64,000 nt of DNA from a virus. Its lineage: Duplodnaviria > Caudoviricetes. Below the pieces are notes generated by a model that saw only the letters and a program-made list of their open reading frames with translations, did no database searches and had not been told where the DNA came from. The translations under genes and the position numbers were made by a program. How positions within the stretch are numbered: the first letter of the stretch is position 1; the number at the start of each line of letters is the position of its first letter. The stretch lies in IMG/VR virus record IMGVR_UViG_3300031555_010338; one strand, 5' to 3'. Shown piece after piece: positions 3,591-43,530 of this stretch.

Positions 3591-3703
3591 AATACCAGAG
3601 TTAAGGAGATAGCAAAACAACCTTGACGAGATCGCCGCAGCCGTGAGGGTTGCGGATTGGAAGCCCTAAAGGAATTAGCTAAATAATCGGAGGTAATGAG
3701 AAA

Positions 3704-4048
3704 ATGAAGCTTGCAAACATGATTCCCCTGAATAGCAAAATTACCGTGTATGTCCCCGCTACGGTTGACATTAACAAGGAGATCGACAACGGCGCATATG
3801 TTGAGCGCGTGGCGCGTACCCTCTCCAATGCGTTCGGCGGCGCGACTGCTACCCAGGCCGCTGGCTATTGGGTTGCCGCTGATAACTCCCTTGTGGCTGA
3901 GCGTACAACAATGGTTTTCGCGTACTGCTCCACCGCTGACGCTGAAAAGTACATTGATGATATTGTCCGCATGTGCTACGAGCTGAAGCACGAGATGGGA
4001 CAAGAAGCAATCGCCCTTGAATATAACGGCGGTATGTACTTTATCTAA
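3704..4048 (+). CDS. Hypothetical protein (first early gene)
   Basis: GGAGG RBS; 114-aa ORF downstream of the sigma-A promoter. Confidence 0.85.
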   Translation: MKLANMIPLNSKITVYVPATVDINKEIDNGAYVERVARTLSNAFGGATATQAAGYWVAADNSLVAERTTMVFAYCSTADAEKYIDDIVRMCYELKHEMGQEAIALEYNGGMYFI

Positions 4049-25475: not shown

Positions 25476-25699
25476 AAAATGACAGCGGTTACTATTGGGT
25501 TGACAAGGCGATTACCTGTAACGGCTGCAAGTTTCTAAACTTCTACAAGTGCGGTTGCCGCAGAAACCAGCCGCCTGGAACCGTTCGTCCCCTGTCGTCC
25601 TATATCAACGGCGACAATTATGTGGCAGTTCTCAAGCCTACCGACTGTGATTATCAGAAGGAGCAGAAAGAAGCTGTCTCCAGCACCAAGGTATCATGA
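25463..25699 (+). CDS. Cys-containing hypothetical protein
   Basis: AAGGAG RBS; CNGCKF. Confidence 0.7.
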   Translation: MGKVKNDSGYYWVDKAITCNGCKFLNFYKCGCRRNQPPGTVRPLSSYINGDNYVAVLKPTDCDYQKEQKEAVSSTKVS

Positions 25700-26439
25700 A
25701 GAAGATAGCTGGTGTTTTAGCCTTACTCCTAATTTGGCAAGTAGGATCGACGATGACAACCCCATTGTTCGTTCCCTCTCCAATGTCAGTGCTTGAAGCA
25801 CTTGTAGGACTGGTTGAAACAGGACAGTTGCTTCCAGGGTTGGCTTACTCTTTCTCCAGAATCACTATCGCAGCACTACTTTCCATGTCCGTAGCCGTTC
25901 CTCTGGCTTTGTTGGTATGTGCATTCAAGCCAATCAAGGACATGGTTCACCCTGTCGTATCTGCTATGCGATACATTCCAGTTACCGCATTTTCTCCACT
26001 GCTTATTTTGTGGTTTGGAATCGATGAGACAATGAAGATCTCCTTCCTTTTTCTGGCGACCTTTGTTTATCTGCTTCCATCAACAATTATGTGTCTGGAA
26101 GATGTGCCGCAAGACCTAATTGATACCGGCAAGTCCATCGGAATGCGTTCTCACGAAATCATTTCGGAAATCCTACTTCCCGCAGCTCTACCGTCAATTA
26201 TGAACTCATTTCTCATGATGTATGGTATTGGCTGGACGTATGTAGCAGTGATTGAAGCTGTTAATGCTAAGTTTGGCCTGGGCTTCATTATCAATGTGGG
26301 AGCTGCGAGAGGGAAAACGGCTATCGTATTCGCCTCAATTCTGGTGATCGTCATTTTCAGCTATCTATTCGATTGCGTTGGAAAGAAACTGATCCGTCGA
26401 GCGTTTAGATGGAGGTATTTGAATGATAACCTTGAATGA
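25696..26439 (+). CDS. ABC transporter permease (NitT/TauT/SsuC-type)
   Basis: Multiple TMs; RYIPVTAFSPLLILWFG; EAA-like loop; ILLPAALP. Confidence 0.9.
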   Translation: MKKIAGVLALLLIWQVGSTMTTPLFVPSPMSVLEALVGLVETGQLLPGLAYSFSRITIAALLSMSVAVPLALLVCAFKPIKDMVHPVVSAMRYIPVTAFSPLLILWFGIDETMKISFLFLATFVYLLPSTIMCLEDVPQDLIDTGKSIGMRSHEIISEILLPAALPSIMNSFLMMYGIGWTYVAVIEAVNAKFGLGFIINVGAARGKTAIVFASILVIVIFSYLFDCVGKKLIRRAFRWRYLNDNLE

Positions 26440-27007
26440 TCTTGTGGTTGGGTACGATAAGCCACTTATGAAACCCATCAACTTCACATTTGAAGACGGC
26501 AAGATATACGGAATTTTGGGCAAGTCTGGTTGTGGCAAAAGCACACTGCTGAAAACAATCGCAAAGCTGCATAAGCCGATTTCCGGTAGTGTTAAGCGCG
26601 ATGGTAGTAAGCAAATCTACATGATGCACCAGCGATACACCAATTTTAATTGGCTGAATTGCTTGGATAATGTGCTGATTGCAGAACGCAACCGCCGTAA
26701 GCGCAAAGAGCTTATTCCAGTAGCAAAGACCATTTTGGAACAAGTTGGTCTTGGAGAATATCTTGACCGTTATCCCACCGAGCTTTCCGGTGGAATGCAG
26801 CAGAGATTGGCGTTAGCGCGTGTGTTATTCGTCAAGCCCTCTTGTCTGCTAATGGATGAACCATTATCAGCTCTGGATGATACGACAAGATCAAAAATGC
26901 AGAAGCTGATTATGGATATACACAAAGAAACCAACAGCACCATAATCATGGTCACACATAGCGAAGAAGAAGCAAAGAAAATGTGCGACCACATCTTGAA
27001 ACTTTAA
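26423..27007 (+). CDS. ABC transporter ATP-binding protein
   Basis: GKSGCGKS, LSGGMQQR, LLMDEP, VTH. Confidence 0.95.
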   Translation: MITLNDLVVGYDKPLMKPINFTFEDGKIYGILGKSGCGKSTLLKTIAKLHKPISGSVKRDGSKQIYMMHQRYTNFNWLNCLDNVLIAERNRRKRKELIPVAKTILEQVGLGEYLDRYPTELSGGMQQRLALARVLFVKPSCLLMDEPLSALDDTTRSKMQKLIMDIHKETNSTIIMVTHSEEEAKKMCDHILKL

Positions 27008-28302: not shown

Positions 28303-29889
28303 ATGAAACTGAGACTTACTAAGGCCGGTCGTGCCGTCCTGTTCATTGCCATTATCGTTGTGTTGGGTGTGGGTGGCTTCTTTGGCTATCAGCATTTCGC
28401 CGGTGACGGCGCAAGCCTGATCGACCAGTTCCAGAGCGATAAGCTTCCCAGCAACGATACAAATGCTGGTGTTACCGACACCGCAAAGCCCAATAATAAC
28501 ACCGCTCAGAATATCGACACCAATGACACCACCATCAATCTGTCTCTGGACGAGTGGATTGGTTGGAAGCCCATTATTGATGCCAATCAGGGCTTGACTA
28601 CCCAGCCTGGTTCTATCTTTGATAAGCTTGGTCTGAAGGTCAATATCAATATTATCAACGATGCAGATGCTTCCAGCAATGCTCTGATTAAGGGTGATCT
28701 GAATGCAGCCGGCTATACGCTTAACCGTACCGCATTCCTTTCTGGTAAGTTCAGTGATGCCGGCCTGGATGTTGTGATGCCCGTGTTCACCAATTACTCT
28801 GATGGCGGCGATGGCATTATCGCTCTGAGCAAGTACAACACCATTGAGAGCCTTGTTGATGCCAAGATCGGTGTACCCAAGTTCAGTGAGGCACAGTCCC
28901 TTGTTATCTGGTTTGTGAATAAGTCCGATCTGCCCGATGCAGATAAGCAGAAGATTATCGACAATCTGATCCTGCTGGACGATGCTGAGCAGACCGGCCA
29001 GGCATTCTTCGCAGGCAGTCTGGACGTTGCTGCAACTTGGCAGCCCTACTTGTCCAACGCAGAGAATAGCACCAATTCCCACATTCTGTTCGATACCACT
29101 TCCTCTAACAAGCTGATTATGGACGGCATTTTGTTCCGCTCCGATTTTGCACAGGCACATCCCGACATGATTTCCGCCTTTATCGATGGCATTTTCCAGG
29201 CCGAGGATATGTACGAAACCGAGTTTAAGTATATCCGTAAGGTAATGCCTATGTTCGCTGACTCTTCTGATGAAGACATTCTGAGCATGTGCGGTGACGC
29301 TGGCCTGATGGGTTATACCGAGAATGTAAACGCTCTGGAAAACGACTGCCCCACCGTGTATGCAGACATGTGTGCAATCTGGGAGAGCATTGGCGAGACT
29401 GTTGACAGAACTCTTGGTGCAACTCTGTTTGACACCAGCTATGTAAAGACCCTTTCCAATAACTATTCTTCTCTGCCCCAGCAGTCTACCTTTGAGATTA
29501 CCGAAGAGCAGAAGGAAAGTATCAAGGATGTTGCTGCTCTTCTGACCAAGAGCGCCACCATCAACTTTATCCCCGATACTGCGAAGTTCCTGGATAATGC
29601 AGAGGCTGATGCTGTTCTGAGCGAGTTCGTTGAGATGGCTAAGACTCTGGATGGTACTATCATCCAGATCGAGGGCAATATCAACTCCAACAGCAACACC
29701 GAGGGCGGTATGAAGCTGTCCGAGGAACGCGCAAAGACCGTTAAGAACTACTTTGTGGCAAACGGCATTGATCCCAACCGCATTATCGTAGTCGGTAACG
29801 GCAATACAAAGATGGTCGCTGATCCCAATGGCCCCAATGCGGAGCAGAACCGAAGAACCGATATCTTCTTCAAGACGATTGAAAACTAA
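28303..29889 (+). CDS. NMT1/THI5-like substrate-binding protein fused to C-terminal OmpA-like peptidoglycan-binding domain
   Basis: N-terminal TM; WIGW, SDGGDGI, DVAATWQPY; C-terminal IEGN...LSEERAKTVKNY...NRRTDI. Confidence 0.85.
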   Translation: MKLRLTKAGRAVLFIAIIVVLGVGGFFGYQHFAGDGASLIDQFQSDKLPSNDTNAGVTDTAKPNNNTAQNIDTNDTTINLSLDEWIGWKPIIDANQGLTTQPGSIFDKLGLKVNINIINDADASSNALIKGDLNAAGYTLNRTAFLSGKFSDAGLDVVMPVFTNYSDGGDGIIALSKYNTIESLVDAKIGVPKFSEAQSLVIWFVNKSDLPDADKQKIIDNLILLDDAEQTGQAFFAGSLDVAATWQPYLSNAENSTNSHILFDTTSSNKLIMDGILFRSDFAQAHPDMISAFIDGIFQAEDMYETEFKYIRKVMPMFADSSDEDILSMCGDAGLMGYTENVNALENDCPTVYADMCAIWESIGETVDRTLGATLFDTSYVKTLSNNYSSLPQQSTFEITEEQKESIKDVAALLTKSATINFIPDTAKFLDNAEADAVLSEFVEMAKTLDGTIIQIEGNINSNSNTEGGMKLSEERAKTVKNYFVANGIDPNRIIVVGNGNTKMVADPNGPNAEQNRRTDIFFKTIEN

Positions 29890-29914
29890 CATAGCCTAAA
29901 CAGGCATGGAAGTA

Positions 29915-29975
29915 ACGGCACTTACAGCAACTTTACTACACATAATTTGGGTTTATGATCGTGAAAATGTGCCGT
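29915..29975 (+). ncRNA. ACAGCAA-tagged RNA 1 carrying a Pro(TGG)-like anticodon stem-loop
   Basis: ACGGCAC/GTGCCGT closing stem, TTACAGCAA, inner CATAA-TTTGGGT-TTATG. Confidence 0.65.
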
Positions 29976-29996
29976 GTTGGAATACGAAATATAATA

Positions 29997-30053
29997 AAGG
30001 CGCTAACAGCAATGTTACAAAACATGGACTTGAAATCTATTCAAATGCGCCTT
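29997..30053 (+). ncRNA. ACAGCAA-tagged RNA 2 carrying a Ser(TGA)-like anticodon stem-loop
   Basis: AAGGCGC/GCGCCTT closing stem, TAACAGCAA, inner ATGGA-CTTGAAA-TCTAT. Confidence 0.65.
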
Positions 30054-30064
30054 GCAAAGAAAAT

Positions 30065-30157
30065 GGAGCAGTAAGCCTAACTGGTAAGATAGTCGCCTGC
30101 TAAGCGACGAGTAGCCGCGTAAGCGGTGTGCAGGTTCGAGTCCTGTCTGCTCCGCCA
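30065..30157 (+). tRNA. tRNA-Ser(GCT)
   Basis: GGAGCAG/CTGCTCC acceptor, GTCGC-CTGCTAA-GCGAC, long variable arm, GGTTCGAGTCC, encoded CCA. Confidence 0.9.
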
Positions 30158-30161
30158 TCAA

Positions 30162-30327
30162 GAGCAAGTAGGCAAAGAGAAAGCCTATTCATATCGACGA
30201 GCAATAACTGTAACACCTCCCTTTACTCACCATACATCCCCCTCCCTATCTCCTTTGTTCCCTGCTTCGTCGCATGAATACAAAATAGATTCGTCTATTG
30301 CATAGGAGCGTTGCCTATGCCTTGCTC
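30162..30327 (+). ncRNA. Structured ncRNA candidate with large C/U-rich loop
   Basis: Nested helices GAGCAAG/CTTGCTC, TAGGCAA/TTGCCTA, TATTCAT/ATGAATA, CGACGAGCA/TGCTTCGTCG enclosing an anti-SD-rich loop. Confidence 0.6.
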
Positions 30328-30340
30328 GATAAAAAAATCT

Positions 30341-30427
30341 GCTGGTGTGGTGGAATTGGCAGACACATCGGACTTAAGTTCCGATGCTCGTAAGGGCGTG
30401 TGGGTTCAAGTCCCACCGCCAGCACCA
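30341..30427 (+). tRNA. tRNA-Leu(TAA)
   Basis: GCTGGTG acceptor, TGGAATTGGCAGAC D-arm, TCGGA-CTTAAGT-TCCGA, variable arm, T-arm, CCA. Confidence 0.95.
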
Positions 30428-30432
30428 AACAC

Positions 30433-30546
30433 GGGAGCGTCTGGGCGGCAGCTTTTTACAGTGTATAGGACGGCGGACACTTACAGCAACTTTACAAAAA
30501 GAGTTATGGAAAAACTTAGCTTGCGGTTCGATTCCGCAGCTCCCCA
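30433..30546 (+). ncRNA. ACAGCAA-tagged RNA 3: degenerate tRNA-like with Ser(GGA)-like loop
   Basis: GGGAGC/GCTCCC acceptor, GACAC-TTACAGCAA tag, GAGTT-ATGGAAA-AACTT, T-arm TGCGG-TTCGATT-CCGCA. Confidence 0.6.
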
Positions 30547-30613
30547 AAGCCGTTAATTTTCTTCAAAGTCCGGTTAATTTTATTGGCAGTCGATGATAAG
30601 ACATAATAGACAT

Positions 30614-30729
30614 GCGGAAGTAGCTCAGTCGGTAGAGCAACAGTAAAAAAAATGTGTCGTGTATATGACGCACACAGCAATTTCAAATATGGGAACTGCG
30701 TGTCGGAGGTTCGAGTCCTCCCTTCCGCG
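30614..30729 (+). ncRNA. ACAGCAA-tagged RNA 4: tRNA with insertion in the anticodon loop (Pro-like TGG/GGG)
   Basis: GCGGAAG/CTTCCGC acceptor, canonical D- and T-arms, insert AATGTGTC..GACGCAC-ACAGCAA. Confidence 0.7.
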
Positions 30730-30736
30730 CGAATAT

Positions 30737-30853
30737 GCCAGGGTAGCTCAGTTGGATAGAGCGCGTAAATAACGCGACTTGTACAAGACGCTAACAGCAA
30801 TTTCTTTTGGTCTGTTAAACCCGTGGTCGTGGGTTCGAGTCCCACCCCTGGCG
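30737..30853 (+). ncRNA. ACAGCAA-tagged RNA 5: tRNA-Asn(GTT) with 43-nt insertion in the anticodon stem
   Basis: GCCAGGG/CCCTGGC acceptor, G73, GGT-CTGTTAA-ACC; insert 30766-30808 contains GACGC-TAACAGCAA. Confidence 0.75.
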
Positions 30854-30860
30854 CATTTAT

Positions 30861-30977
30861 ACGGTGGTCGTCAAGTGGTAAGACAGCGGCCATATAAAAT
30901 GTGACCGTAAGGCTCACTAACAGCAAAGTTATGAAGCCAAGCCGCCACCGCAGGTTCGATTCCTGCCCACCGTTCCA
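30861..30977 (+). ncRNA. ACAGCAA-tagged RNA 6: tRNA-Gly(GCC)-like with insertion in the anticodon loop
   Basis: ACGGTGG/CCACCGT acceptor, T73, CCA; GCGGC/GCCGC stem; insert AATGTGA..TCAC-TAACAGCAA before GCCAA. Confidence 0.75.
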
Positions 30978-31202
30978 CGGGGATAAGCTGACTTCGCCAT
31001 TCAAACAGCCCCTTATTAAACTGGTAGAAATGGCCTCTGGTACAGCAGAAGTAAAGAGGTATAGCCGGCGATGAGTCGTAGTAACCGGCGAGGTTAAGAG
31101 CTGACGCATGGGAACTGTAACTCCCTGGGCATCGTGAAAAGTCATCCACGGCCACACGGATGGTACGATGTACCGCTCCTGCATAGGTGCGCATATGCAA
31201 AT

Positions 31203-31287
31203 CGAGACACTTACAGCAACATTAAAGGTTAAAGTAGTTGGTAGCATTGCCGATGCGAGAAGGTTCAAGTCCTTCACTCGTGTCTCG
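31203..31287 (+). ncRNA. ACAGCAA-tagged RNA 7: terminal tag stem enclosing a D-loop/T-arm module
   Basis: CGAGACAC/GTGTCTCG, TTACAGCAA, AGTTGGTAG, GAAGG-TTCAAGT-CCTTC. Confidence 0.65.
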
Positions 31288-31299
31288 TAAACCTCCTTT

Positions 31300-31405
31300 A
31301 AGACACCTGCAGCAAATAACAATGGGAGTCGTTTTAATTGGTAAAGACGGCTGGATACCAGTCATGCGGGTTCGAGTCCCGTCTTCTATTAAAATGGCGT
31401 GTCTT
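31300..31405 (+). ncRNA. Tagged RNA 8: terminal tag stem enclosing a cloverleaf with minimised anticodon loop
   Basis: AAGACAC/GTGTCTT, variant tag CTGCAGCAA; AATGGGAG/CTTCTATT, D-loop TAATTGGTA, GGCTGG-ATA-CCAGTC, GCGGG-TTCGAGT-CCCGT. Confidence 0.65.
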
Positions 31406-31462: not shown

Positions 31463-32980
31463 ATGAGCAATTTTATGTCTGCGGTCAAGAACACTCTGAA
31501 CAATGAGTGTAACTACTCCATGACGGAGAATGGTGCGCTGGGCTATCGCACCACCGGCAAGGAGCTGTTGGATCTCAACTTTGCGGTTGCTTCTCTGCGC
31601 CGCGCAACTCCCAGCGAAATCGCAAACCGATTTACAAAGGCTTTCTTTGAGGACAAGATCGTTGCGATGAAGTGGCTGTTCTTCGCCCGTGATGTTCGTG
31701 GTGGCCTGGGTGAGCGCCGCCTGTTCAGAACCATCCTGTCTAATATGGCTCACACAAACCCCGAATACATCGTACCTCTGCTGGAACTCGTTCCTGAGTA
31801 TGGCCGCTACGATGATCTGTGGTGTCTGCTCGATACCGAGCTGCAGAAGGATGTTCTGGATGTGATTTCCAAGCAGCTTACCGAAGACATCCAGAACTTG
31901 AAGGAAGGCAAGGGTATTTCCCTGCTGGCAAAATGGCTTCCTTCTCCCAATGCTTCTTCTAAGACTACCAAGCGGTATGCCAAGAAGATTTACAAGCACA
32001 TGGGCGTTTCTGAGCGAGACTACCGCAAGGCAATCTCTCGTCTGCGTACCAAGCTGGATGTCGTCGAGAAGAAGATGTCCGCTAAGCATTGGGGTGATAT
32101 CGCATATGAGGCTGTCCCCTCTCGTGCCAACCTGATCTACAACTCCGCTTTCCTTCGTAACGACGAAGAGCGCCGCCGTAACTTCCTCTCCAAGCTGGAA
32201 AAGGGCGAAGCAAAGATCAACGCATCCACCCTGTTCCCTCACGACATTGTACATCAGTATGGCCGAAAGAGTAGTGCTGATGCTACTTTGGAAGCTCTGT
32301 GGAAGGCTCTGCCTGACACCGTTCAGGGCTGCGGCAACACTATTGTTGTGGCAGACGGTAGTGGTAGCATGAGCGTCCGCGTTGGTGGAACTGATGTTTC
32401 TGCTCTGGAAGTTGCTAATGCACTGGCAATTTACTTTGCCGAGCGTTCTTCCGGTCAGTTCAAGGATAACTACATTACCTTCTCTGAGCGTCCTAAGCTC
32501 GTCAATCTGAGCAATGGAAAGAACCTGCGTGAGAAGATCCAGATCGCTCGTCGCCATAGCGAGGTAGCAAACACCAATATCGAAGCTGTCTTCGATCTGA
32601 TTTTGACTACCGCAAAGCGCGAGAATATGGCGCAGGAGGATATTCCTCAGAACATCCTTATCATCTCTGACATGGAGTTTGATGGCTGCGCGGTTTGCAC
32701 TACGAACCGTCGTCCTGATGCCCGTCTGTTCCAGGTGATTGCCAAGCGTTACGAAGACGCTGGCTATAAGCTGCCCCGCCTGGTGTTCTGGAATGTGAAT
32801 AGCAGAAGTGCTACCATTCCCGTTATCGAAAACGACATGGGTGTTGCGCTGGTAAGCGGCTTCAGCACCAATATCGTCAAGATGGTCATGAGCGGCAAGA
32901 CCGATCCCTATGAGTGCTTGCTGGAAACTCTGAACACCGAGCGTTATGCACCGATTGGTGAGGCTCTGAAGAGTCTGTAA
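31463..32980 (+). CDS. DUF2828-family protein (helical repeats plus C-terminal vWA; putatively TROVE/Ro60-like)
   Basis: TENGA, ARDVRGGLGER, YGRYDDL, AKWLPS, VPSRA, LFPHDIV; MIDAS DGSGSM, ISDMEFD, FWNV, VSGFS. Confidence 0.88.
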   Translation: MSNFMSAVKNTLNNECNYSMTENGALGYRTTGKELLDLNFAVASLRRATPSEIANRFTKAFFEDKIVAMKWLFFARDVRGGLGERRLFRTILSNMAHTNPEYIVPLLELVPEYGRYDDLWCLLDTELQKDVLDVISKQLTEDIQNLKEGKGISLLAKWLPSPNASSKTTKRYAKKIYKHMGVSERDYRKAISRLRTKLDVVEKKMSAKHWGDIAYEAVPSRANLIYNSAFLRNDEERRRNFLSKLEKGEAKINASTLFPHDIVHQYGRKSSADATLEALWKALPDTVQGCGNTIVVADGSGSMSVRVGGTDVSALEVANALAIYFAERSSGQFKDNYITFSERPKLVNLSNGKNLREKIQIARRHSEVANTNIEAVFDLILTTAKRENMAQEDIPQNILIISDMEFDGCAVCTTNRRPDARLFQVIAKRYEDAGYKLPRLVFWNVNSRSATIPVIENDMGVALVSGFSTNIVKMVMSGKTDPYECLLETLNTERYAPIGEALKSL

Positions 32981-35564: not shown

Positions 35565-36761
35565 ATGGTAAAGCAGATCAAAGTTGTTATCGGAGCCAAT
35601 TTTGGCGATGAGGGCAAAGGTCTTATGACCGATTATTTCTGCCACGAGCTTTCACAAACTGGTAGCGTTCTGAACATTCGTCATAACGGCGGCGCACAAG
35701 CTGGTCATACCGTGGTATTACCAGACGGCAAGCGTCATGTGTTCAGTCACTTTGGGTCTGGGAGCTTCGTACCCCATGTCGCTACTTATCTTTCTCAGGA
35801 TTTTATTCTCAACCCTATGCTCTTCTGTCGTGAACTGGAGCGTCTGAAAAACAAGTTCGGCCTAATGCCAAGAGTATTCATCAACCCATATTGTAGGCTT
35901 ACAACCCCATACGACATGCTTATCAACCAGATCGCAGAGCGTAGTCGTGGTGATGCACGGCACGGTAGCTGCGGTTTAGGTATCAATGAAACTGTCGTTC
36001 GCAATGAGCGCATTCGGACGGATATCGGTCTGTTTGCATCTAAACCAGCATTGATGAATCATCTGGTAGCAACGCTGGTTTATCTGCGTAAGGAATATGT
36101 TCCAAGCCGTTTGAAGCAGCTTGGCGTAGATAACATTTCTATCGAGGACATGAAGCTAATTGAAAGCGATATCGTCCTTGAAAACTGGATGATGCAACTG
36201 ACAGAAATGCTCAACTATTGCACCATTGCCGGCGATGAAATCCTTGATAATTACGACGGACTTGTGTTCGAGGGAGCGCAGGGGCTTCTTCTGGACAACG
36301 ACTGTAAAGCGTTTGCTCCGCACCTTACCACATCTAAGACGGGATCTTTTAACCCTAAAAATATTCTTGCTCGTATGTCCATGCAGGATCGGGATATTGA
36401 GTTCTGCTATGTGACCCGCTCCTACTTCACACGGCATGGAGCTGGCAAGTTCCCTTCTGAGTGTGAGAAAAGCATTATTCTTCCTGAGGATGTTGTTGAT
36501 AAGACCAATCATTTCAACGAGTTTCAGAGAGAATTCCGCTATGGATACTTTGATGAGTATTTGTTCGAGAATGCCACTGAGAAAGATCTTCTGTATCGGC
36601 ACTGCGATTTCTCAAAGGCCAAATATACCAGAGCAGTTACCCATTTGGACGAAACGGATGGTAAGCTGATCGGCCACGATGGAAAGGAACTCTCCTTCCC
36701 GTCTGGCACACGATACCGCAGCTACGGAGAGACACGAAACGATGTCCATTGTCTGCGCTAA
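35565..36761 (+). CDS. Adenylosuccinate synthetase-like (PurA family) protein
   Basis: GANFGDEGKG, GGAQAGHTV, HGSCGLGI, FEGAQGLLLD, TRHGAG. Confidence 0.88.
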   Translation: MVKQIKVVIGANFGDEGKGLMTDYFCHELSQTGSVLNIRHNGGAQAGHTVVLPDGKRHVFSHFGSGSFVPHVATYLSQDFILNPMLFCRELERLKNKFGLMPRVFINPYCRLTTPYDMLINQIAERSRGDARHGSCGLGINETVVRNERIRTDIGLFASKPALMNHLVATLVYLRKEYVPSRLKQLGVDNISIEDMKLIESDIVLENWMMQLTEMLNYCTIAGDEILDNYDGLVFEGAQGLLLDNDCKAFAPHLTTSKTGSFNPKNILARMSMQDRDIEFCYVTRSYFTRHGAGKFPSECEKSIILPEDVVDKTNHFNEFQREFRYGYFDEYLFENATEKDLLYRHCDFSKAKYTRAVTHLDETDGKLIGHDGKELSFPSGTRYRSYGETRNDVHCLR

Positions 36762-36839: not shown

Positions 36840-37916
36840 ATGATTAAGAAAGTTGACCGCAAAAACCGTTTTGTGTCCATGTTTGACCCCAAGACTGGTT
36901 TCTATGCCAGAAGCGGAGTAATCGATGAAAACGGCAATGATACCGGCGTAGATCCTTTTATGACCGCTTATCCTGAGCTGATCGATGTCGGCGTTATGGG
37001 ACATTGCGTACACGGCAGCAGTGGTCTTTGCATTAAGTCTGGTGTCCAGTGCTATCAGAACGGCCTTAAAACAAAGCATCCCAACATGACGCTTGAAAAC
37101 TTCAAACGTATTGTAGATGAGTGCAAGGGAAAAACCTTCCAGCTTGCGCTTGGTGGTCGTGGCGATGTGGATCAGCATGAAAATTTTGCTGAGATCCTTC
37201 AGTATTGTCGTGAGAACGATATCGTCCCCAACTTCACCAGCTCTGGCCTTGGTTTCACTGACGAAATCGTACAGCTTTGTAAGCAGTATTGTGGTGCGGT
37301 TGCGATTTCCTGGTATCGTCAGTCTCATACGATCCGTGCGATTCAGATGCTTCTTGATGCTGGTGTAAAGACCAACATTCACTATGTTCTTGGAAACAAT
37401 TCCATCGACGAGGCAATCGAGCGTTTGAAGAACAATGATTTCCCAGCCGGTGTTAATGCAGTAATCTTTCTGCTTCATAAGCCCGTTGGTCTTGGTAGTG
37501 AAGAGAATGTGCTACAGAGCGACGATCCCCGTGTTGCGGAGTTTTTCAAGGTAGTGGATGCGCAGAAGTTCAATTTCAAGATTGGTTTTGACTCCTGTTC
37601 TATTCCCGCCGTACTTAACCTTACAAGTAATATCGATCATGACAGTATCGATACCTGCGAGGGTGGCCGTTGGAGCATGTATATTACCAGCGACATGAAG
37701 GCTTTGCCCTGCTATTTCGATAATCAGGAGCTTCGCTGGGCATACGACATCAGCAACGACAGCATTCAGAACGCCTGGAACAGTCCTCAGTTTGAAGACT
37801 TCCGCAATCATTTCCGCACGGCCTGTCCTGGATGTAGCCAGCGGTGTGCTTGCATGGGCGGCTGTCCTATTCGTCCGCAGATCGTTATTTGTAATAGGAA
37901 GGAGAAAACGGTGTAA
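36840..37916 (+). CDS. Radical SAM/SPASM-domain protein with atypical CX7CX6C motif
   Basis: CVHGSSGLCIKSGVQCYQ; ALGGRGD; SPASM CEGG..PC..CPGC..CMGGCP. Confidence 0.85.
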   Translation: MIKKVDRKNRFVSMFDPKTGFYARSGVIDENGNDTGVDPFMTAYPELIDVGVMGHCVHGSSGLCIKSGVQCYQNGLKTKHPNMTLENFKRIVDECKGKTFQLALGGRGDVDQHENFAEILQYCRENDIVPNFTSSGLGFTDEIVQLCKQYCGAVAISWYRQSHTIRAIQMLLDAGVKTNIHYVLGNNSIDEAIERLKNNDFPAGVNAVIFLLHKPVGLGSEENVLQSDDPRVAEFFKVVDAQKFNFKIGFDSCSIPAVLNLTSNIDHDSIDTCEGGRWSMYITSDMKALPCYFDNQELRWAYDISNDSIQNAWNSPQFEDFRNHFRTACPGCSQRCACMGGCPIRPQIVICNRKEKTV

Positions 37917-42123: not shown

Positions 42124-43530
42124 GTGAAGACATTGTATTCTGCATTTGTTACCAGAATTAAAAACCTGAGAAAACATACGAATGCAGATCGTCTGATGTG
42201 TGGCGAGTGTTTTGGCAATACGGTTATCGTTGGCCTGGACACTCAGCCAGACGAGCTTGGTGTTTACTTCCCCGTAGACGGCAAGCTTGGTTTGGAGTTT
42301 GCGCAGAAGAATGATCTGCTCCGCCGCAAGGATGAAAATGGCAAACCTGCTGGCGGTTATCTCGATCCTGAGAAGAGAAACATTAAGGCTCTGAAGCTCC
42401 GTGGAGAAAAGAGCGACGGCCTGTTTATGCCTCTTGTTTGTCTGGCAGATTACACCGATATTGCCAGTTTGAAAGAGGGTGACACCATTACAGTGTTGAA
42501 TGGTGTAACGATTTGTGAGAAATATATCCCCCGCGCAAGTAGTAGGGGGGGGTGTCATTTTGATGGTAATCGCACTCGCAAGCGCAAAGATCCTGTGTCT
42601 CCCCTGTTCATGGAACATGCAGACACGGAACAGCTTGCCTACAATCTTACATCCTTCCGTGCTGGCGACCAAATCGAGGTCACTTTGAAGATGCACGGCA
42701 CTTCTCAGAGAACCGGCTATCTTCCCGTTCTGAGTGGATATAAGCGCACCATTATGGATAAGCTGCGCAAGCGTTCTGGCACACCGATTTATGATTGGGG
42801 CTATGTCTCCGGTACTCGTCGTGTAGTTCTGGACGATTATGAAGGCGGCTACTATGGGAGCAACGCCTTCCGTGAGCAGCACAGCAAGATCTTTGAAGGC
42901 AAACTTCATAAGGGCGAGACGGTATATTATGAGGTTGTTGGTTTTACTCAGGACGGTACGCCTATCATGGCTTCTTGTGATAACAAGAAAGTAGGCGATA
43001 AGGAATTTACTAAACAATACGGAGATGTTACGACATTCTCTTATGGCTGCAAGCCTGGACATTTGGGCGGACTTATCAAAGATAAGGAAATTGTGGATAA
43101 CGAAGCTGTTGTGTATCCGCAGTCTGACATCTATGTGTACCGTATGACCATGACCAATGAGGACGGCGATGTAGTTGAGTACACGCCCGATTTTATGCGT
43201 TACCGTTGTGAGCAGATGGGCGTTAAGTGTGTTCCCGTATTTTACAAGGGCTACATTCCCGAATACTTCATCCTGCCCGATGATGTTGGAAGTCCCGCCG
43301 CAATCGATGCTGGTGCATATGTAAAGAAGCTGGCTGAGGATTTCTACGACGGCGCTGATCCTGTTGGTAAATCCCATATCCGTGAGGGTGTTGTAGTTCG
43401 GATCATCAACCGTCCTAAGTTCACCGCTTACAAGCATAAGAACTTTGCGTTTAAGGTGCTGGAGGGCATTATCAAGGATGTTGCTACCGCACCTGACATG
43501 GAAGAGGCTCAGGAACAGGAGGCTGCATAA
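42124..43530 (+). CDS. ATP-dependent RNA ligase (Rnl2/DRB0094-like) with N-terminal OB-like domain
   Basis: H.NADRL and KLRGEKSDG N-domain; motif I KMHGTS, III YYEVVG, IV EGVVV, V YKHKN. True start may be TTG 42133. Confidence 0.85.
   Translation: MKTLYSAFVTRIKNLRKHTNADRLMCGECFGNTVIVGLDTQPDELGVYFPVDGKLGLEFAQKNDLLRRKDENGKPAGGYLDPEKRNIKALKLRGEKSDGLFMPLVCLADYTDIASLKEGDTITVLNGVTICEKYIPRASSRGGCHFDGNRTRKRKDPVSPLFMEHADTEQLAYNLTSFRAGDQIEVTLKMHGTSQRTGYLPVLSGYKRTIMDKLRKRSGTPIYDWGYVSGTRRVVLDDYEGGYYGSNAFREQHSKIFEGKLHKGETVYYEVVGFTQDGTPIMASCDNKKVGDKEFTKQYGDVTTFSYGCKPGHLGGLIKDKEIVDNEAVVYPQSDIYVYRMTMTNEDGDVVEYTPDFMRYRCEQMGVKCVPVFYKGYIPEYFILPDDVGSPAAIDAGAYVKKLAEDFYDGADPVGKSHIREGVVVRIINRPKFTAYKHKNFAFKVLEGIIKDVATAPDMEEAQEQEAA

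What the first reader, a model, noticed from the sequence alone, without database searches (positions are those of the whole stretch)
29915..30053. Free-standing anticodon stem-loops (Pro-TGG, Ser-TGA) mounted on the tag stem
Seen: each roughly 60-nt RNA contains a 5-bp stem and a 7-nt loop with U33 and purine 37 (CATAA-TTTGGGT-TTATG; ATGGA-CTTGAAA-TCTAT). These match natural Pro(TGG, G37) and Ser(TGA) loops, but there is no acceptor, D or T arm. Inference: minimal anticodon decoys that cannot be charged and could titrate anticodon nucleases, modification enzymes or T-box sensors.
Basis: partly seen in the sequence, partly recalled or inferred. Interest (0 to 1): 0.78.

Follow-up and report, generated by a model that had tools for sequence, protein, structure and literature searches.

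The report
Anticodon-arm mimic RNAs on Ro60-like handle
Two ~60-base phage RNA genes each carry a faithful copy of a tRNA anticodon arm (proline, serine) on a conserved "handle" that travels with a Ro60-like ring protein in many phages, so they are probably protein-mounted tRNA-part mimics, not stray hairpins.

Summary
Element 1 (29915-29975) and element 2 (29997-30053) each have a 7-bp terminal helix, 2 nt, ACAGCAAY, then a 5-bp stem with a 7-nt loop: UUUGGGU (Pro-like) and CUUGAAA, which is identical to this phage's own tRNA-Ser(UGA) loop. Neither has an acceptor, D or T arm.

The refutation test fails. Among 73 related free-standing elements, 26 show a stem of at least 5 bp with a 7-nt U33/R37 loop, against 3.7±1.8 in shuffles. 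Thirteen of 68 from other phages carry a loop identical to a genuine tRNA loop, against 0.05 expected. Both helices covary. A covariance model built only from other phages hits both elements at E about 1e-12.

The "tag stem" is a conserved handle, always co-oriented with a DUF2828/DUF7788 gene (31463-32980) whose model folds like Ro60 (TROVE plus vWA). The same pairing occurs in cultured Listeria, Staphylococcus, Enterococcus, Bacillus, Campylobacter, Mycobacterium and Felix-O1-like phages. The handle motif also matches Dictyostelium Class I RNAs.

Anticodons swap between orthologous copies. I read these RNAs as Y-RNA-like partners that display anticodon arms. A decoy role against anticodon-reading or anticodon-cutting factors is plausible but untested.

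This scan has already found the same system on other DNA (about 90 genomes).

The parts
29915..29975 (+). Element 1: a 61-nt handle RNA carrying a tRNA-Pro(UGG)-like anticodon stem-loop
   Evidence: Sequence read. Hit by model R2, built only from other phages, at 55.9 bits and E 4.5e-12 with all pairs standard. Orthologues at the same array position in L032, L033 and L035 keep the loop UUUGGG while the stem differs.
29915..29931 (+). Element 1 handle, 5' side: helix strand ACGGCAC, spacer TT, tag ACAGCAAC
   Evidence: The last 11 nt, ACTTACAGCAA, match 10 of 11 positions of the Dictyostelium Class I motif CCTTACAGCAA.
29941..29957 (+). Element 1 anticodon-arm mimic: CATAA / TTTGGGT / TTATG (loop 29946-29952)
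   Evidence: The genuine tRNA-Pro(UGG) of this phage has the loop TTTGGGA, so 6 of 7 positions match. Homologues carry TTTGGG with any base at the seventh position on covarying stems.
29969..29975 (+). Element 1 handle, 3' helix strand GTGCCGT, preceded by AAAAT
29997..30053 (+). Element 2: a 57-nt handle RNA carrying a tRNA-Ser(UGA) anticodon stem-loop
   Evidence: Best hit of model R2 in the window, at 58.4 bits and E 1e-12. Orthologues in L035 and L009-L018 keep the loop CTTGAAA on different stems.
29997..30013 (+). Element 2 handle, 5' side: helix strand AAGGCGC, spacer TA, tag ACAGCAAT
30024..30040 (+). Element 2 anticodon-arm mimic: ATGGA / CTTGAAA / TCTAT (loop 30029-30035)
   Evidence: The loop is identical to that of the phage's own tRNA-Ser(UGA). 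The stem covaries in homologues.
30047..30053 (+). Element 2 handle, 3' helix strand GCGCCTT, preceded by AAAT
30065..30157 (+). Ordinary tRNA-Ser(GCU), which follows the two elements in all close relatives
30341..30427 (+). Ordinary tRNA-Leu(UAA)
30433..30977 (+). Four tRNA-shaped genes with the same handle (hairpin plus NN plus ACAGCAAY) inside the anticodon arm
   Evidence: Rfam tRNA hits with 50-56 nt inserts. Tags at 30483, 30674, 30794 and 30920. The last three have 50 nt between the anticodon-stem strands, by my reading.
31204..31405 (+). Two further handle RNAs enclosing tRNA-like pieces (T arm). The second has the variant tag GCAGCAA and ends about 60 nt before the protein gene.
   Evidence: Model R2 hits 31204-31286 (E 1.2e-05) and 31300-31405 (E 0.0098). 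Sequence.
31463..32980 (+). DUF2828/DUF7788 protein of 505 aa, Ro60-like (TROVE ring plus vWA with a conserved MIDAS motif): the presumed protein partner
   Evidence: Pfam. PHROG 850 'RNA-binding protein'. The AlphaFold model matches Ro60 structures 9kop, 1yvp, 2i91, 9l5y and 2nvo over its full length. D298, S300 and S302 are invariant.

Best explanation
Elements 1 and 2 are small non-coding RNA genes of a large phage family. Each member has a terminal 6-8-bp helix, then 2 nt and single-stranded ACAGCAAY on the 5' side, and an A-rich stretch (AAU) on the 3' side. I infer that this "handle" is the binding site for the adjacent Ro60-like (TROVE plus vWA, DUF2828) protein, in the way the closing stem and internal loop of Y RNAs bind Ro60.

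The variable part of the RNA mimics pieces of tRNA. In these two members it is only the anticodon arm, with the authentic 7-nt loop of tRNA-Pro(UGG) or tRNA-Ser(UGA) on an AU-rich 5-bp stem. The RNAs cannot be charged.

The most likely role is to present anticodon arms, as part of a ribonucleoprotein, to host factors that read or cut anticodon loops. Host tRNA-targeting defence nucleases are the leading candidates, with the RNAs acting as bait, competitor or tether.

Shown here:
- the structure;
- membership of the family;
- exact loop mimicry;
- linkage to the protein gene;
- the Ro60-like fold of the protein.

Inferred:
- binding of the RNA to the protein (about 0.6);
- the anti-defence decoy role (about 0.3).
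For: 1. Structure and covariation. In 29 homologues 98.6% of cells are paired, and 10 of 12 pairs show compensatory changes. Versions with the partner slid by 1-3 columns pair in only 29-56% of cells.
2. Membership. Model R2, built from 150 matches in other phages, hits element 2 (E 1e-12) and element 1 (E 4.5e-12) as the best two matches in the window.
3. Mimicry. Loops with U33 and R37 on stems of at least 5 bp occur in 26 of 73 representatives, against 3.7±1.8 in shuffles. In 13 of 68 representatives from other phages the loop is identical to a genuine tRNA loop of this phage, against 0.05 expected. The loops seen are Lys CUUUUAA, Ser CUUGAAA and CUGCUAA, Asn CUGUUAA, Cys CUGCAAA, Gln CUUUGAC, Pro UUUGGG plus any base, and Met CUCAUAA.
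4. Selection on the loop. At the same array position in relatives whose protein is 74-79% identical, the loops are kept while the stems change. Orthologous copies with the same helix and stem swap anticodons: Asn to Ile, Ser-UGA to Lys, Gln to UUU.
5. Linkage to the protein.
   - All 151 model hits in 614 kb lie on the strand of the DUF2828 gene.
   - In 88 loci there are 547 forward tags against 48 reverse.
   - The pairing recurs down to about 35% protein identity in cultured phages of six host genera.
6. The protein model matches Ro60 with bound RNAs (1yvp, 2i91) and the phage phiLo Ro60 (9kop, 9l5y).
7. Precedent.
   - Ro60 partners (Y RNAs) lie within 4 kb on the same strand and mimic tRNA (PMC4201824).
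   - The phiLo Ro60 binds two upstream Y-like RNAs (PMC12135203).
   - Isolated anticodon stem-loops are cut by at least one tRNA-targeting nuclease (PMC13692257).
   - Competition by viral tRNAs has been proposed for AriB (PMC12409363).
Against:
- Binding of the handle to the protein is inferred only from linkage and analogy.
- The handle lacks the GNCGAA/CGAA motif of known Ro60-binding Y RNAs.
- Rfam YrlA does not match elements 1 and 2.
- Only about a third of free-standing family members carry an anticodon-like hairpin, so anticodon display is one cargo among several.
- A cleavable decoy would be consumed by a catalytic nuclease.
- Some anticodon nucleases need modified bases or the full tRNA (established knowledge).
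- Thermodynamic support is weak.
- The sequences used for the covariation count were chosen for having the helix and the hairpin, so the percentage paired is partly true by construction. The shuffle tests do not share this bias.
Confidence: 0.6

Rival explanations
1. Gate or pseudo-substrate reading. The Ro60-like protein's real clients are damaged or misfolded tRNAs, in RNA quality control or repair. The anticodon-arm RNAs occupy or regulate its tRNA-binding surface, or tether it to tRNA-processing or repair enzymes, as Y RNAs gate Ro60 and tether PNPase. They would not be acting on host defence nucleases.
For: - The protein has a Ro60-like fold.
- Y RNAs gate Ro60 and tether PNPase (PMC4201824, PMC12135203).
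- The gene sits in or beside tRNA arrays in many phages, and an RtcB-type ligase lies 1.2 kb downstream in a Listeria phage.
- The comparative-genomics literature treats TROVE proteins as an RNA-repair platform (PMC7824862).
- A weak RNA-ligase-like ORF lies at window 42124-43530.
Against: - This phage has no RtcB.
- Rapid anticodon swapping between orthologous copies is explained more easily by changing external targets than by housekeeping repair.
- Nothing here separates this reading from the bait reading.
Confidence: 0.2
2. Naked decoys. The hairpins titrate anticodon nucleases, modification enzymes, aminoacyl-tRNA synthetases or T-box leaders on their own. The helix plus tag only stabilises the RNA or directs its processing.
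For: Exact loop mimicry. Isolated anticodon stem-loops can be substrates of a tRNA-targeting nuclease.
Against: - The tag is invariant over very distant phages and always travels with the DUF2828 gene. A stabilising stem would not need that.
- Serine loops are among the commonest cargos, yet seryl-tRNA synthetase does not read the anticodon (established knowledge). This argues against synthetase titration.
- T-box binding also needs the tRNA elbow (established knowledge).
Confidence: 0.1
3. Non-functional leftovers: decayed fragments of tRNA genes into which a mobile handle element once inserted, or mere processing signals of the tRNA operon transcript.
For: The same handle sits inside otherwise intact tRNA-shaped genes a few hundred bases away. 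No promoter or terminator of their own was found.
Against: - The loops are conserved letter for letter while the stems covary across relatives with 74-79% protein identity.
- The stems are AU-rich and unlike those of the genuine tRNAs, so these are not recent copies.
- The enrichment over shuffles is very large.
Confidence: 0.05

Closest known systems
Bacterial and phage Y RNAs bound by Ro60/Rsr (YrlA, YrlB, Yrn1; Rfam RF02553; Chen et al. 2014, PMC4201824; phage phiLo Yrl1/Yrl2, PMC12135203)
   Same: - Small RNAs encoded within a few kb of a Ro60-type (TROVE plus vWA) gene and on its strand.
- A 5'-3' closing stem that flanks an internal loop carrying a conserved motif.
- A variable domain that mimics tRNA.
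- In Mycobacterium phage Zaria and Enterococcus phage EFDG1, handle RNAs with a tRNA-like body overlap weak YrlA matches of 34-45 bits, below the family's gathering score of 69.
   Different: - The motif is ACAGCAAY, not GNCGAA/CGAA.
- Elements 1 and 2 carry only an anticodon arm, the one part of tRNA that YrlA lacks, and have no T or D arm.
- The RNAs come in arrays of about 5-14 per locus.
- The protein belongs to the DUF2828/DUF7788 branch.
- Rfam gives no match for elements 1 and 2.
Class I RNAs of dictyostelid social amoebae (Rfam RF01414; Kjellin et al. 2021, PMC7919456; search pattern GTTGRCCTTACAGCAA...GTCAACTG in PMC5054030)
   Same: - Length of about 60 nt and a short covarying stem joining the 5' and 3' ends.
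- A conserved unpaired motif, CCUUACAGCAA, directly after the 5' strand, with the remainder variable.
- Genes in clusters.
- Element 1 matches 10 of 11 motif positions and element 2 matches 9 of 11. Both have all five positions that the paper calls universal (T3, C6, C9, A10, A11).
- The bases after the motif are also alike: AUCUAAC in DdR-28 and DdR-56 and in the phage copy L009.
   Different: - Class I RNAs are eukaryotic, with their own promoter element and a conserved CUGU 3' end.
- They are reported as unique to Dictyostelia, and their known direct binder is the RRM protein Rnp1A.
- No anticodon-like hairpins were evident in the few sequences seen.
- No Rfam family, RF01414 included, reaches E 10 on elements 1 and 2.
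- Whether the likeness is homology or convergence is open.
Phage tRNAs that counter tRNA-targeting defences (for example T5 tRNA-Lys/Thr/Asn against PARIS AriB; PMC12409363)
   Same: Phage-encoded RNAs with tRNA anticodon arms, encoded in tRNA arrays. The anticodons overlap known nuclease targets: Lys UUU, Asn GUU, Pro UGG.
   Different: Those are full, chargeable tRNAs that escape cleavage through changed nucleotides and restore translation. Elements 1 and 2 keep the authentic loop, lack the body, and cannot take part in translation.

Membership tests
ACAGCAA-handle RNAs linked to DUF2828 (undescribed family, defined here and in earlier reports of this scan) | Terminal helix of 6-8 bp that covaries | tested here: met
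   The 7-bp helices are 29915-21 with 29969-75 and 29997-30003 with 30047-53. Five of the 7 helix pairs show compensatory changes and all cells are paired. RNAalifold predicts this helix on its own.
ACAGCAA-handle RNAs linked to DUF2828 (undescribed family, defined here and in earlier reports of this scan) | Two-nucleotide spacer, then ACAGCAAY after the 5' strand, and an A-rich stretch (AAU) before the 3' strand | tested here: met
   Element 1 has TT, ACAGCAAC and AAAAT. Element 2 has TA, ACAGCAAT and AAAT. Column frequencies over 140 unique family members are.
ACAGCAA-handle RNAs linked to DUF2828 (undescribed family, defined here and in earlier reports of this scan) | Same strand as a DUF2828/DUF7788 gene and within a few kb of it | tested here: met
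   The gene at 31463-32980 lies 1.4-1.5 kb downstream on the + strand. All 151 model hits in 66 loci are on the gene's strand.
ACAGCAA-handle RNAs linked to DUF2828 (undescribed family, defined here and in earlier reports of this scan) | Match to a covariance model built without the window's own sequences | tested here: met
   Model R2 gives 58.4 bits (E 1e-12) and 55.9 bits (E 4.5e-12). Caveat: the first-round model R1, used to collect the sequences for R2, included the two elements among its 29 seeds.
Y RNA / YrlA (Rfam RF02553) | Encoded beside a Ro60 (TROVE plus vWA) gene on the same strand | tested here: met
   The protein model matches Ro60 structures over its full length at E 1e-8 to 1e-6. 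Pfam gives only DUF2828/DUF7788 and a faint vWA_Ro60 match.
Y RNA / YrlA (Rfam RF02553) | GNCGAA(N)G or CGAA motif at the closing stem | tested here: not met
   The sequence has ACAGCAAY instead. The motif definition comes from PMC4201824 and PMC12135203.
Y RNA / YrlA (Rfam RF02553) | tRNA-like domain with T and D arms; Rfam gathering score of 69 bits | tested here: not met
   There is no Rfam match at E up to 10 in 29905-30062. The cargo is an anticodon arm only.
Y RNA / YrlA (Rfam RF02553) | Physical binding to the Ro60-type protein | not testable with these tools
   This needs EMSA, RIP or cryo-EM.
Dictyostelium Class I RNA (Rfam RF01414) | Length 42-65 nt, a short 5'-3' stem, and the 11-nt motif CCUUACAGCAA next to the 5' strand | tested here: met
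   The elements are 61 and 57 nt with 7-bp stems. The motif matches at 10 of 11 and 9 of 11 positions, with all five universal positions kept.
Dictyostelium Class I RNA (Rfam RF01414) | Match to the family's covariance model; conserved CUGU 3' end; DUSE promoter | tested here: not met
   No Rfam match at E up to 10. The 3' flanks are GTTGG and GCAAA. The promoter element is eukaryotic and was not sought.
tRNA | Acceptor stem with a 3' end, plus D arm and T arm | tested here: not met
   ARAGORN and Rfam tRNA call the neighbouring genes but not these two elements. Only the anticodon arm is present.
tRNA | Anticodon arm: 5-bp stem, 7-nt loop, U33, purine 37 | tested here: met
   The loop of element 2 is identical to that of the genuine tRNA-Ser(UGA) of this phage, and the loop of element 1 matches tRNA-Pro(UGG) at 6 of 7 positions.

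The most novel reading that the evidence does not exclude
The Ro60-like protein and its handle RNAs form a modular "tRNA-part display" particle. The handle is a universal adaptor and the cargo (an anticodon arm, a tRNA elbow or a whole tRNA body) is exchangeable. Swapping one or two anticodon bases retargets the particle to a different anticodon-reading enemy. The same adaptor survives in eukaryotes as the Class I RNAs of social amoebae. If so, an ancient DUF2828-handle ribonucleoprotein spans phages and eukaryotes, and the long-unexplained Class I RNAs gain a candidate protein partner.
Probability: 0.2. Interest if true: 0.88.

Novelty: new variant of a known kind. Interest (0 to 1): 0.7.

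Why it matters
Ro60 and its Y RNAs are conserved from bacteria to humans, yet what the tRNA-like part of Y RNAs is for remains unclear. The role of the Ro60-like "RNA-binding protein" carried by hundreds of phages is unknown.

Here the partner RNAs are many per genome and have a simple, recognisable handle. In cases like these two they display nothing but an authentic anticodon arm, whose anticodon changes between close relatives. This points to the anticodon loop as the business end and gives direct experiments.

The same pairing is present in culturable phages: Felix-O1-like wV8, Listeria Pecentumvirus, Enterococcus EFDG1, Bacillus 2S-4 and Campylobacter CJLB-10.

It also bears on the current picture of tRNA as a main battleground between phages and bacterial defences. 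And it links phage RNAs to the Dictyostelium Class I RNAs, which have been published as unique to social amoebae.

Tried and rejected
- **Rfam.** There is no match for the two elements, even at E 10.
- **Single-sequence folding.** It is not informative: element 1 has a z-score of -0.71, and the minimum-energy fold of element 2 chooses another hairpin.
- **Longest-stem hairpin caller.** It over-extended stems into the loops through G-U pairs and under-counted 7-nt loops. I replaced it with a fixed-loop scan with shuffle controls.
- **Alignment A3.** It was made without the window's sequences, but MAFFT misaligned the 3' strands. I did not use it. Independence was obtained through a second-round model instead.
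- **Promoter and terminator scan.** It found nothing above chance.
- **RNA repair genes.** RtcB is absent from this phage. There is only a sub-threshold RNA-ligase-like ORF.
- **Protein Atlas look-up.** It returned only phage DUF2828 clusters and says nothing about eukaryotic relatives.

Ideas considered and dropped:
- **Kissing-loop guides.** The mimics would pair with tRNAs of complementary anticodon. Most of the mimicked anticodons have no complementary bacterial tRNA, by my reasoning.
- **Synthetase titration.** Serine loops are common, and SerRS ignores the anticodon.
- **CRISPR-repeat mimicry.** It was recalled as a possible analogy and not tested. Linkage to the Ro60-like gene explains the tag better.
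- **Protein coding.** The ORF 29906-30103 runs across a tRNA gene.
Full report
**What is there**

The stretch 29915-30053 lies at the start of a 1.5-kb non-coding array (29915-31405, + strand) in a 143.8-kb phage or prophage record.

Element 1 (29915-29975) reads as follows:
- helix strand ACGGCAC, spacer TT, tag ACAGCAAC;
- a 9-nt linker, then hairpin CATAA / TTTGGGT / TTATG;
- a linker ending in AAAAT, then helix strand GTGCCGT.

Element 2 (29997-30053) has the same plan:
- helix strand AAGGCGC, spacer TA, tag ACAGCAAT;
- a 10-nt linker, then hairpin ATGGA / CTTGAAA / TCTAT;
- linker TCAAAT, then helix strand GCGCCTT.

ARAGORN and Rfam call the two ordinary tRNAs that follow, Ser-GCU at 30065-30157 and Leu-UAA at 30341-30427. 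Rfam also calls two tRNA-shaped genes further on with 50-56-nt inserts. Neither tool calls anything at elements 1 and 2. There is no acceptor, D or T arm.

**Is it more than chance, and do homologues behave the same?**

I fetched 88 viral loci through the neighbouring protein. In them the 7-mer ACAGCAA occurs 547 times on the protein's strand and 48 times on the other, where about 50 per strand would be expected by chance. A closing helix of at least 7 bp within 90 nt is present at 40% of forward tags, against 9% of random positions.

I then took every free-standing element, chosen only for having the tag and a closing helix, with 20-50 nt of cargo. I clustered them into 73 representatives. 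No condition was placed on the cargo.
- 26 have a stem of at least 5 bp closing a 7-nt loop with U at position 2 and a purine at position 6. Dinucleotide shuffles give 3.7±1.8, and none of 500 shuffles reached 26.
- A stricter test used the 68 representatives from other phages. Thirteen carry a loop that is letter for letter one of the 28 genuine anticodon loops of this phage's own tRNAs. Shuffles give 0.05, with a maximum of 1 in 1000.

The loops seen are CUUUUAA (Lys), CUUGAAA (Ser-UGA), CUGCUAA (Ser-GCU), CUGUUAA (Asn), CUGCAAA (Cys), CUGAUAA (Ile), CUUUGAC (Gln, including its unusual C38), CUCAUAA (Met), and UUUGGG plus any base (Pro, with G37).

**Structure and membership**

On an alignment of 29 such elements, the terminal helix and the hairpin stem pair in 98.6% of cells. 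Ten of the 12 pairs show compensatory changes. Sliding the partner strand by 1-3 columns drops pairing to 29-56%. RNAalifold recovers the terminal helix on its own. Because these sequences were chosen for having both helices, the percentage paired is partly true by construction. The diversity of the pairs and the shuffle tests above are the unbiased evidence.

A covariance model from this alignment found 151 matches (E at most 0.01) in 614 kb of other loci, and every one lies on the protein's strand. A second model, built only from those matches, hits element 2 (58.4 bits, E 1e-12) and element 1 (55.9 bits, E 4.5e-12). These are the two best matches in the window. It also hits the other array members and three copies in the phage's distant tRNA array.

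**Conservation at the same position**

The closest relatives are L032 and L033 (79% protein identity), L035 (77%) and the L009 group (74%). In L032, L033 and L035 the array keeps the same order: element 1, element 2, tRNA-Ser(GCU), tRNA-Leu(UAA), tagged tRNA-shaped genes, protein gene.
- Element 1 keeps UUUGGG in the loop in L032, L033 and L035, while its stem changes from CAUAA/UUAUG to AUAUA/UAUAU. In the L009 group the element just before the element-2 orthologue carries a larger, different loop.
- Element 2 keeps CUUGAAA on three different stems (AUGGA/UCUAU, UCAAA/UUUGA, UUGAA/UUCAA). In L032 it carries another loop.

Orthologous copies with identical helix and stem also differ only in the anticodon: CUGUUAA against CUGAUAA, CUUGAAA against CUUUUAA, and CUUUGAC against CUUUUAC. 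The loop frame is therefore under selection while the anticodon can be exchanged. The stems are AU-rich and unlike those of the phage's genuine tRNAs. These are mimics, not recent copies of the tRNA genes.

**What the tag stem is**

The gene 1.4 kb downstream (31463-32980) matches Pfam DUF2828 and DUF7788 and PHROG 850 "RNA-binding protein". Its AlphaFold model (pLDDT 73) matches Ro60 over the full length:
- the Xenopus Ro autoantigen with bound RNAs (1yvp, 2i91);
- Deinococcus Rsr (2nvo);
- the Ro60 of Thermus phage phiLo (9kop, 9l5y).

E-values are 1e-8 to 5e-6. The MIDAS residues of the vWA domain are invariant.

The published picture of Ro60 fits the locus. Its partner Y RNAs are encoded within about 4 kb on the same strand, they have a 5'-3' stem flanking an internal loop with a conserved motif, and they mimic tRNA (PMC4201824). 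The phiLo Ro60 binds two upstream Y-like RNAs (PMC12135203). The helix plus ACAGCAAY is therefore best read as the protein's handle.

The handle also occurs without cargo, about 55 nt before the protein's start codon in several relatives. It occurs inside the anticodon arm of otherwise complete tRNA-shaped genes here, and it encloses pieces that contain a T arm. This is the behaviour of a portable module.

**Breadth**

The protein has full-length relatives in 710 cultured phage records. I inspected eight and found the handle beside the gene in seven:
- Mycobacterium phage Zaria: three copies, one overlapping a weak YrlA match;
- Enterococcus EFDG1;
- Bacillus 2S-4: includes a Lys anticodon-arm copy at L099:1480-1545;
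- Listeria vB_Liva_VAfA18;
- Staphylococcus S-CoN_Ph2;
- Escherichia phage wV8 (Felix-O1-like);
- Campylobacter CJLB-10: a Ser-GCU anticodon-arm copy at L103:3820-3883.

No convincing copy was seen in Vibrio ValKK3.

**Link to amoebal Class I RNAs**

Earlier reports of this scan pointed to the Class I RNAs of social amoebae, and I checked this. The published search pattern is GTTGRCCTTACAGCAA...GTCAACTG (PMC5054030). The 11-nt motif is CCTTACAGCAA. The RNAs are 42-65 nt, with a 6-bp covarying terminal stem and a variable remainder, and they were reported as unique to Dictyostelia (PMC7919456).

Elements 1 and 2 match 10 and 9 of the 11 motif positions, including all five positions that the paper calls universal, and they share the overall plan. 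The Rfam scan returned no match of any family, RF01414 included. The likeness is thus one of signature, and membership is not shown.

**How it most likely works**

Shown:
- the RNA structure and family membership;
- authentic anticodon-loop mimicry that is under selection;
- obligatory linkage to a protein with a Ro60-like fold.

Inferred:
- The protein binds the handle (about 0.6).
- The particle presents anticodon arms to factors that recognise anticodon loops.

Host tRNA-targeting defence nucleases are the leading candidates (about 0.3), for three reasons:
- The displayed anticodons include known targets: Lys UUU, Asn GUU and Pro UGG for AriB.
- At least one tRNA-targeting nuclease cuts isolated anticodon stem-loops.
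- Anticodon swapping between close relatives looks like retargeting.

The main rival (about 0.2) is a repair or quality-control particle in which these RNAs gate or tether the ring. The other readings are less likely for the reasons given under rivals: naked decoys, synthetase or T-box titration, and decayed leftovers.

**Verdict**

This is a new variant of the Ro60/Y-RNA kind, with a different handle and with anticodon-arm-only cargo. It appears to be undescribed in Rfam and in the papers searched. This scan has already reported the same system on about 90 other genomes.

Noticed in passing
window 30433-30977: Four tRNA-shaped genes carry the handle as a hairpin (permuted form) inside the anticodon arm. 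In the last three, 50 nt lie between the anticodon-stem strands. In the Asn-like gene, removing 43 nt (30766-30808) would restore a perfect CGGGU/CUGUUAA/ACCCG arm. Whether these inserts are spliced out or are permanent mimics is open.
   Followed up: partly
window 31300-31405: The last array member has the variant tag GCAGCAA. It encloses a tRNA-like piece and ends about 60 nt before the start of the Ro60-like gene. In relatives a cargo-less handle sits about 55 nt before the start codon (for example L019:3934-3967, L021:3935-3970 and L023:3938-3969). This could be a site for autoregulation of the protein's own mRNA.
   Followed up: no
window 35565-36761: This ORF is an adenylosuccinate-synthetase homologue. 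It matches PHROG 1211, which I take to be the PurZ family of 2-aminoadenine synthesis. The phage may replace A by 2-aminoadenine (Z) in its DNA. Partner genes (DatZ, MazZ) were not sought.
   Followed up: no
window 42124-43530: A 468-aa ORF has sub-threshold matches to Pfam RNA_ligase (PF09414) and to the PHA02142 OB-fold domain. It is a possible RNA ligase about 10 kb from the array. No RtcB is present in the genome.
   Followed up: partly
G000:C1:42666-49587 (minus strand; partly in L001): This second, large tRNA array of 27 genes also holds handle RNAs. Model R2 hits L001:1450-1516 (a Lys-like CUUUUAA loop with a mismatched closing pair), L001:2337-2392 and L001:2215-2325.
   Followed up: partly
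L100 (Listeria phage vB_Liva_VAfA18) 6742-8061: A gene annotated 'putative tRNA splicing ligase' (RtcB type) lies 1.2 kb downstream of the Ro60-like gene, and a NADAR gene follows. Three handle RNAs lie upstream at 3663-3920.
   Followed up: no
Supplement of PMC7919456: The outgroup candidates that the authors discarded include an Arabidopsis sequence (stem GTTTTC/GAAAAC, then ATT, then ACAGCAAT) and a Capsaspora sequence (GGAACTC, then CTT, then ACAGCAAT ... GAGTTC). Both have the same stem-plus-ACAGCAA signature. Papers name DUF2828 proteins in plants. The handle may therefore occur in other eukaryotes that have this protein.
   Followed up: no
window 25696-27007 and 28303-29889: The phage region just upstream encodes an ABC-transporter permease and ATPase, and a 528-aa protein with an OmpA-type C-terminal domain (PHROG 25518). 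This is unusual cargo for a phage, or part of the host flank of a prophage.
   Followed up: no
window 36840-37916: An ORF with a SPASM iron-sulfur domain (a radical-SAM-type maturase partner) lies just after the PurZ-like gene.
   Followed up: no
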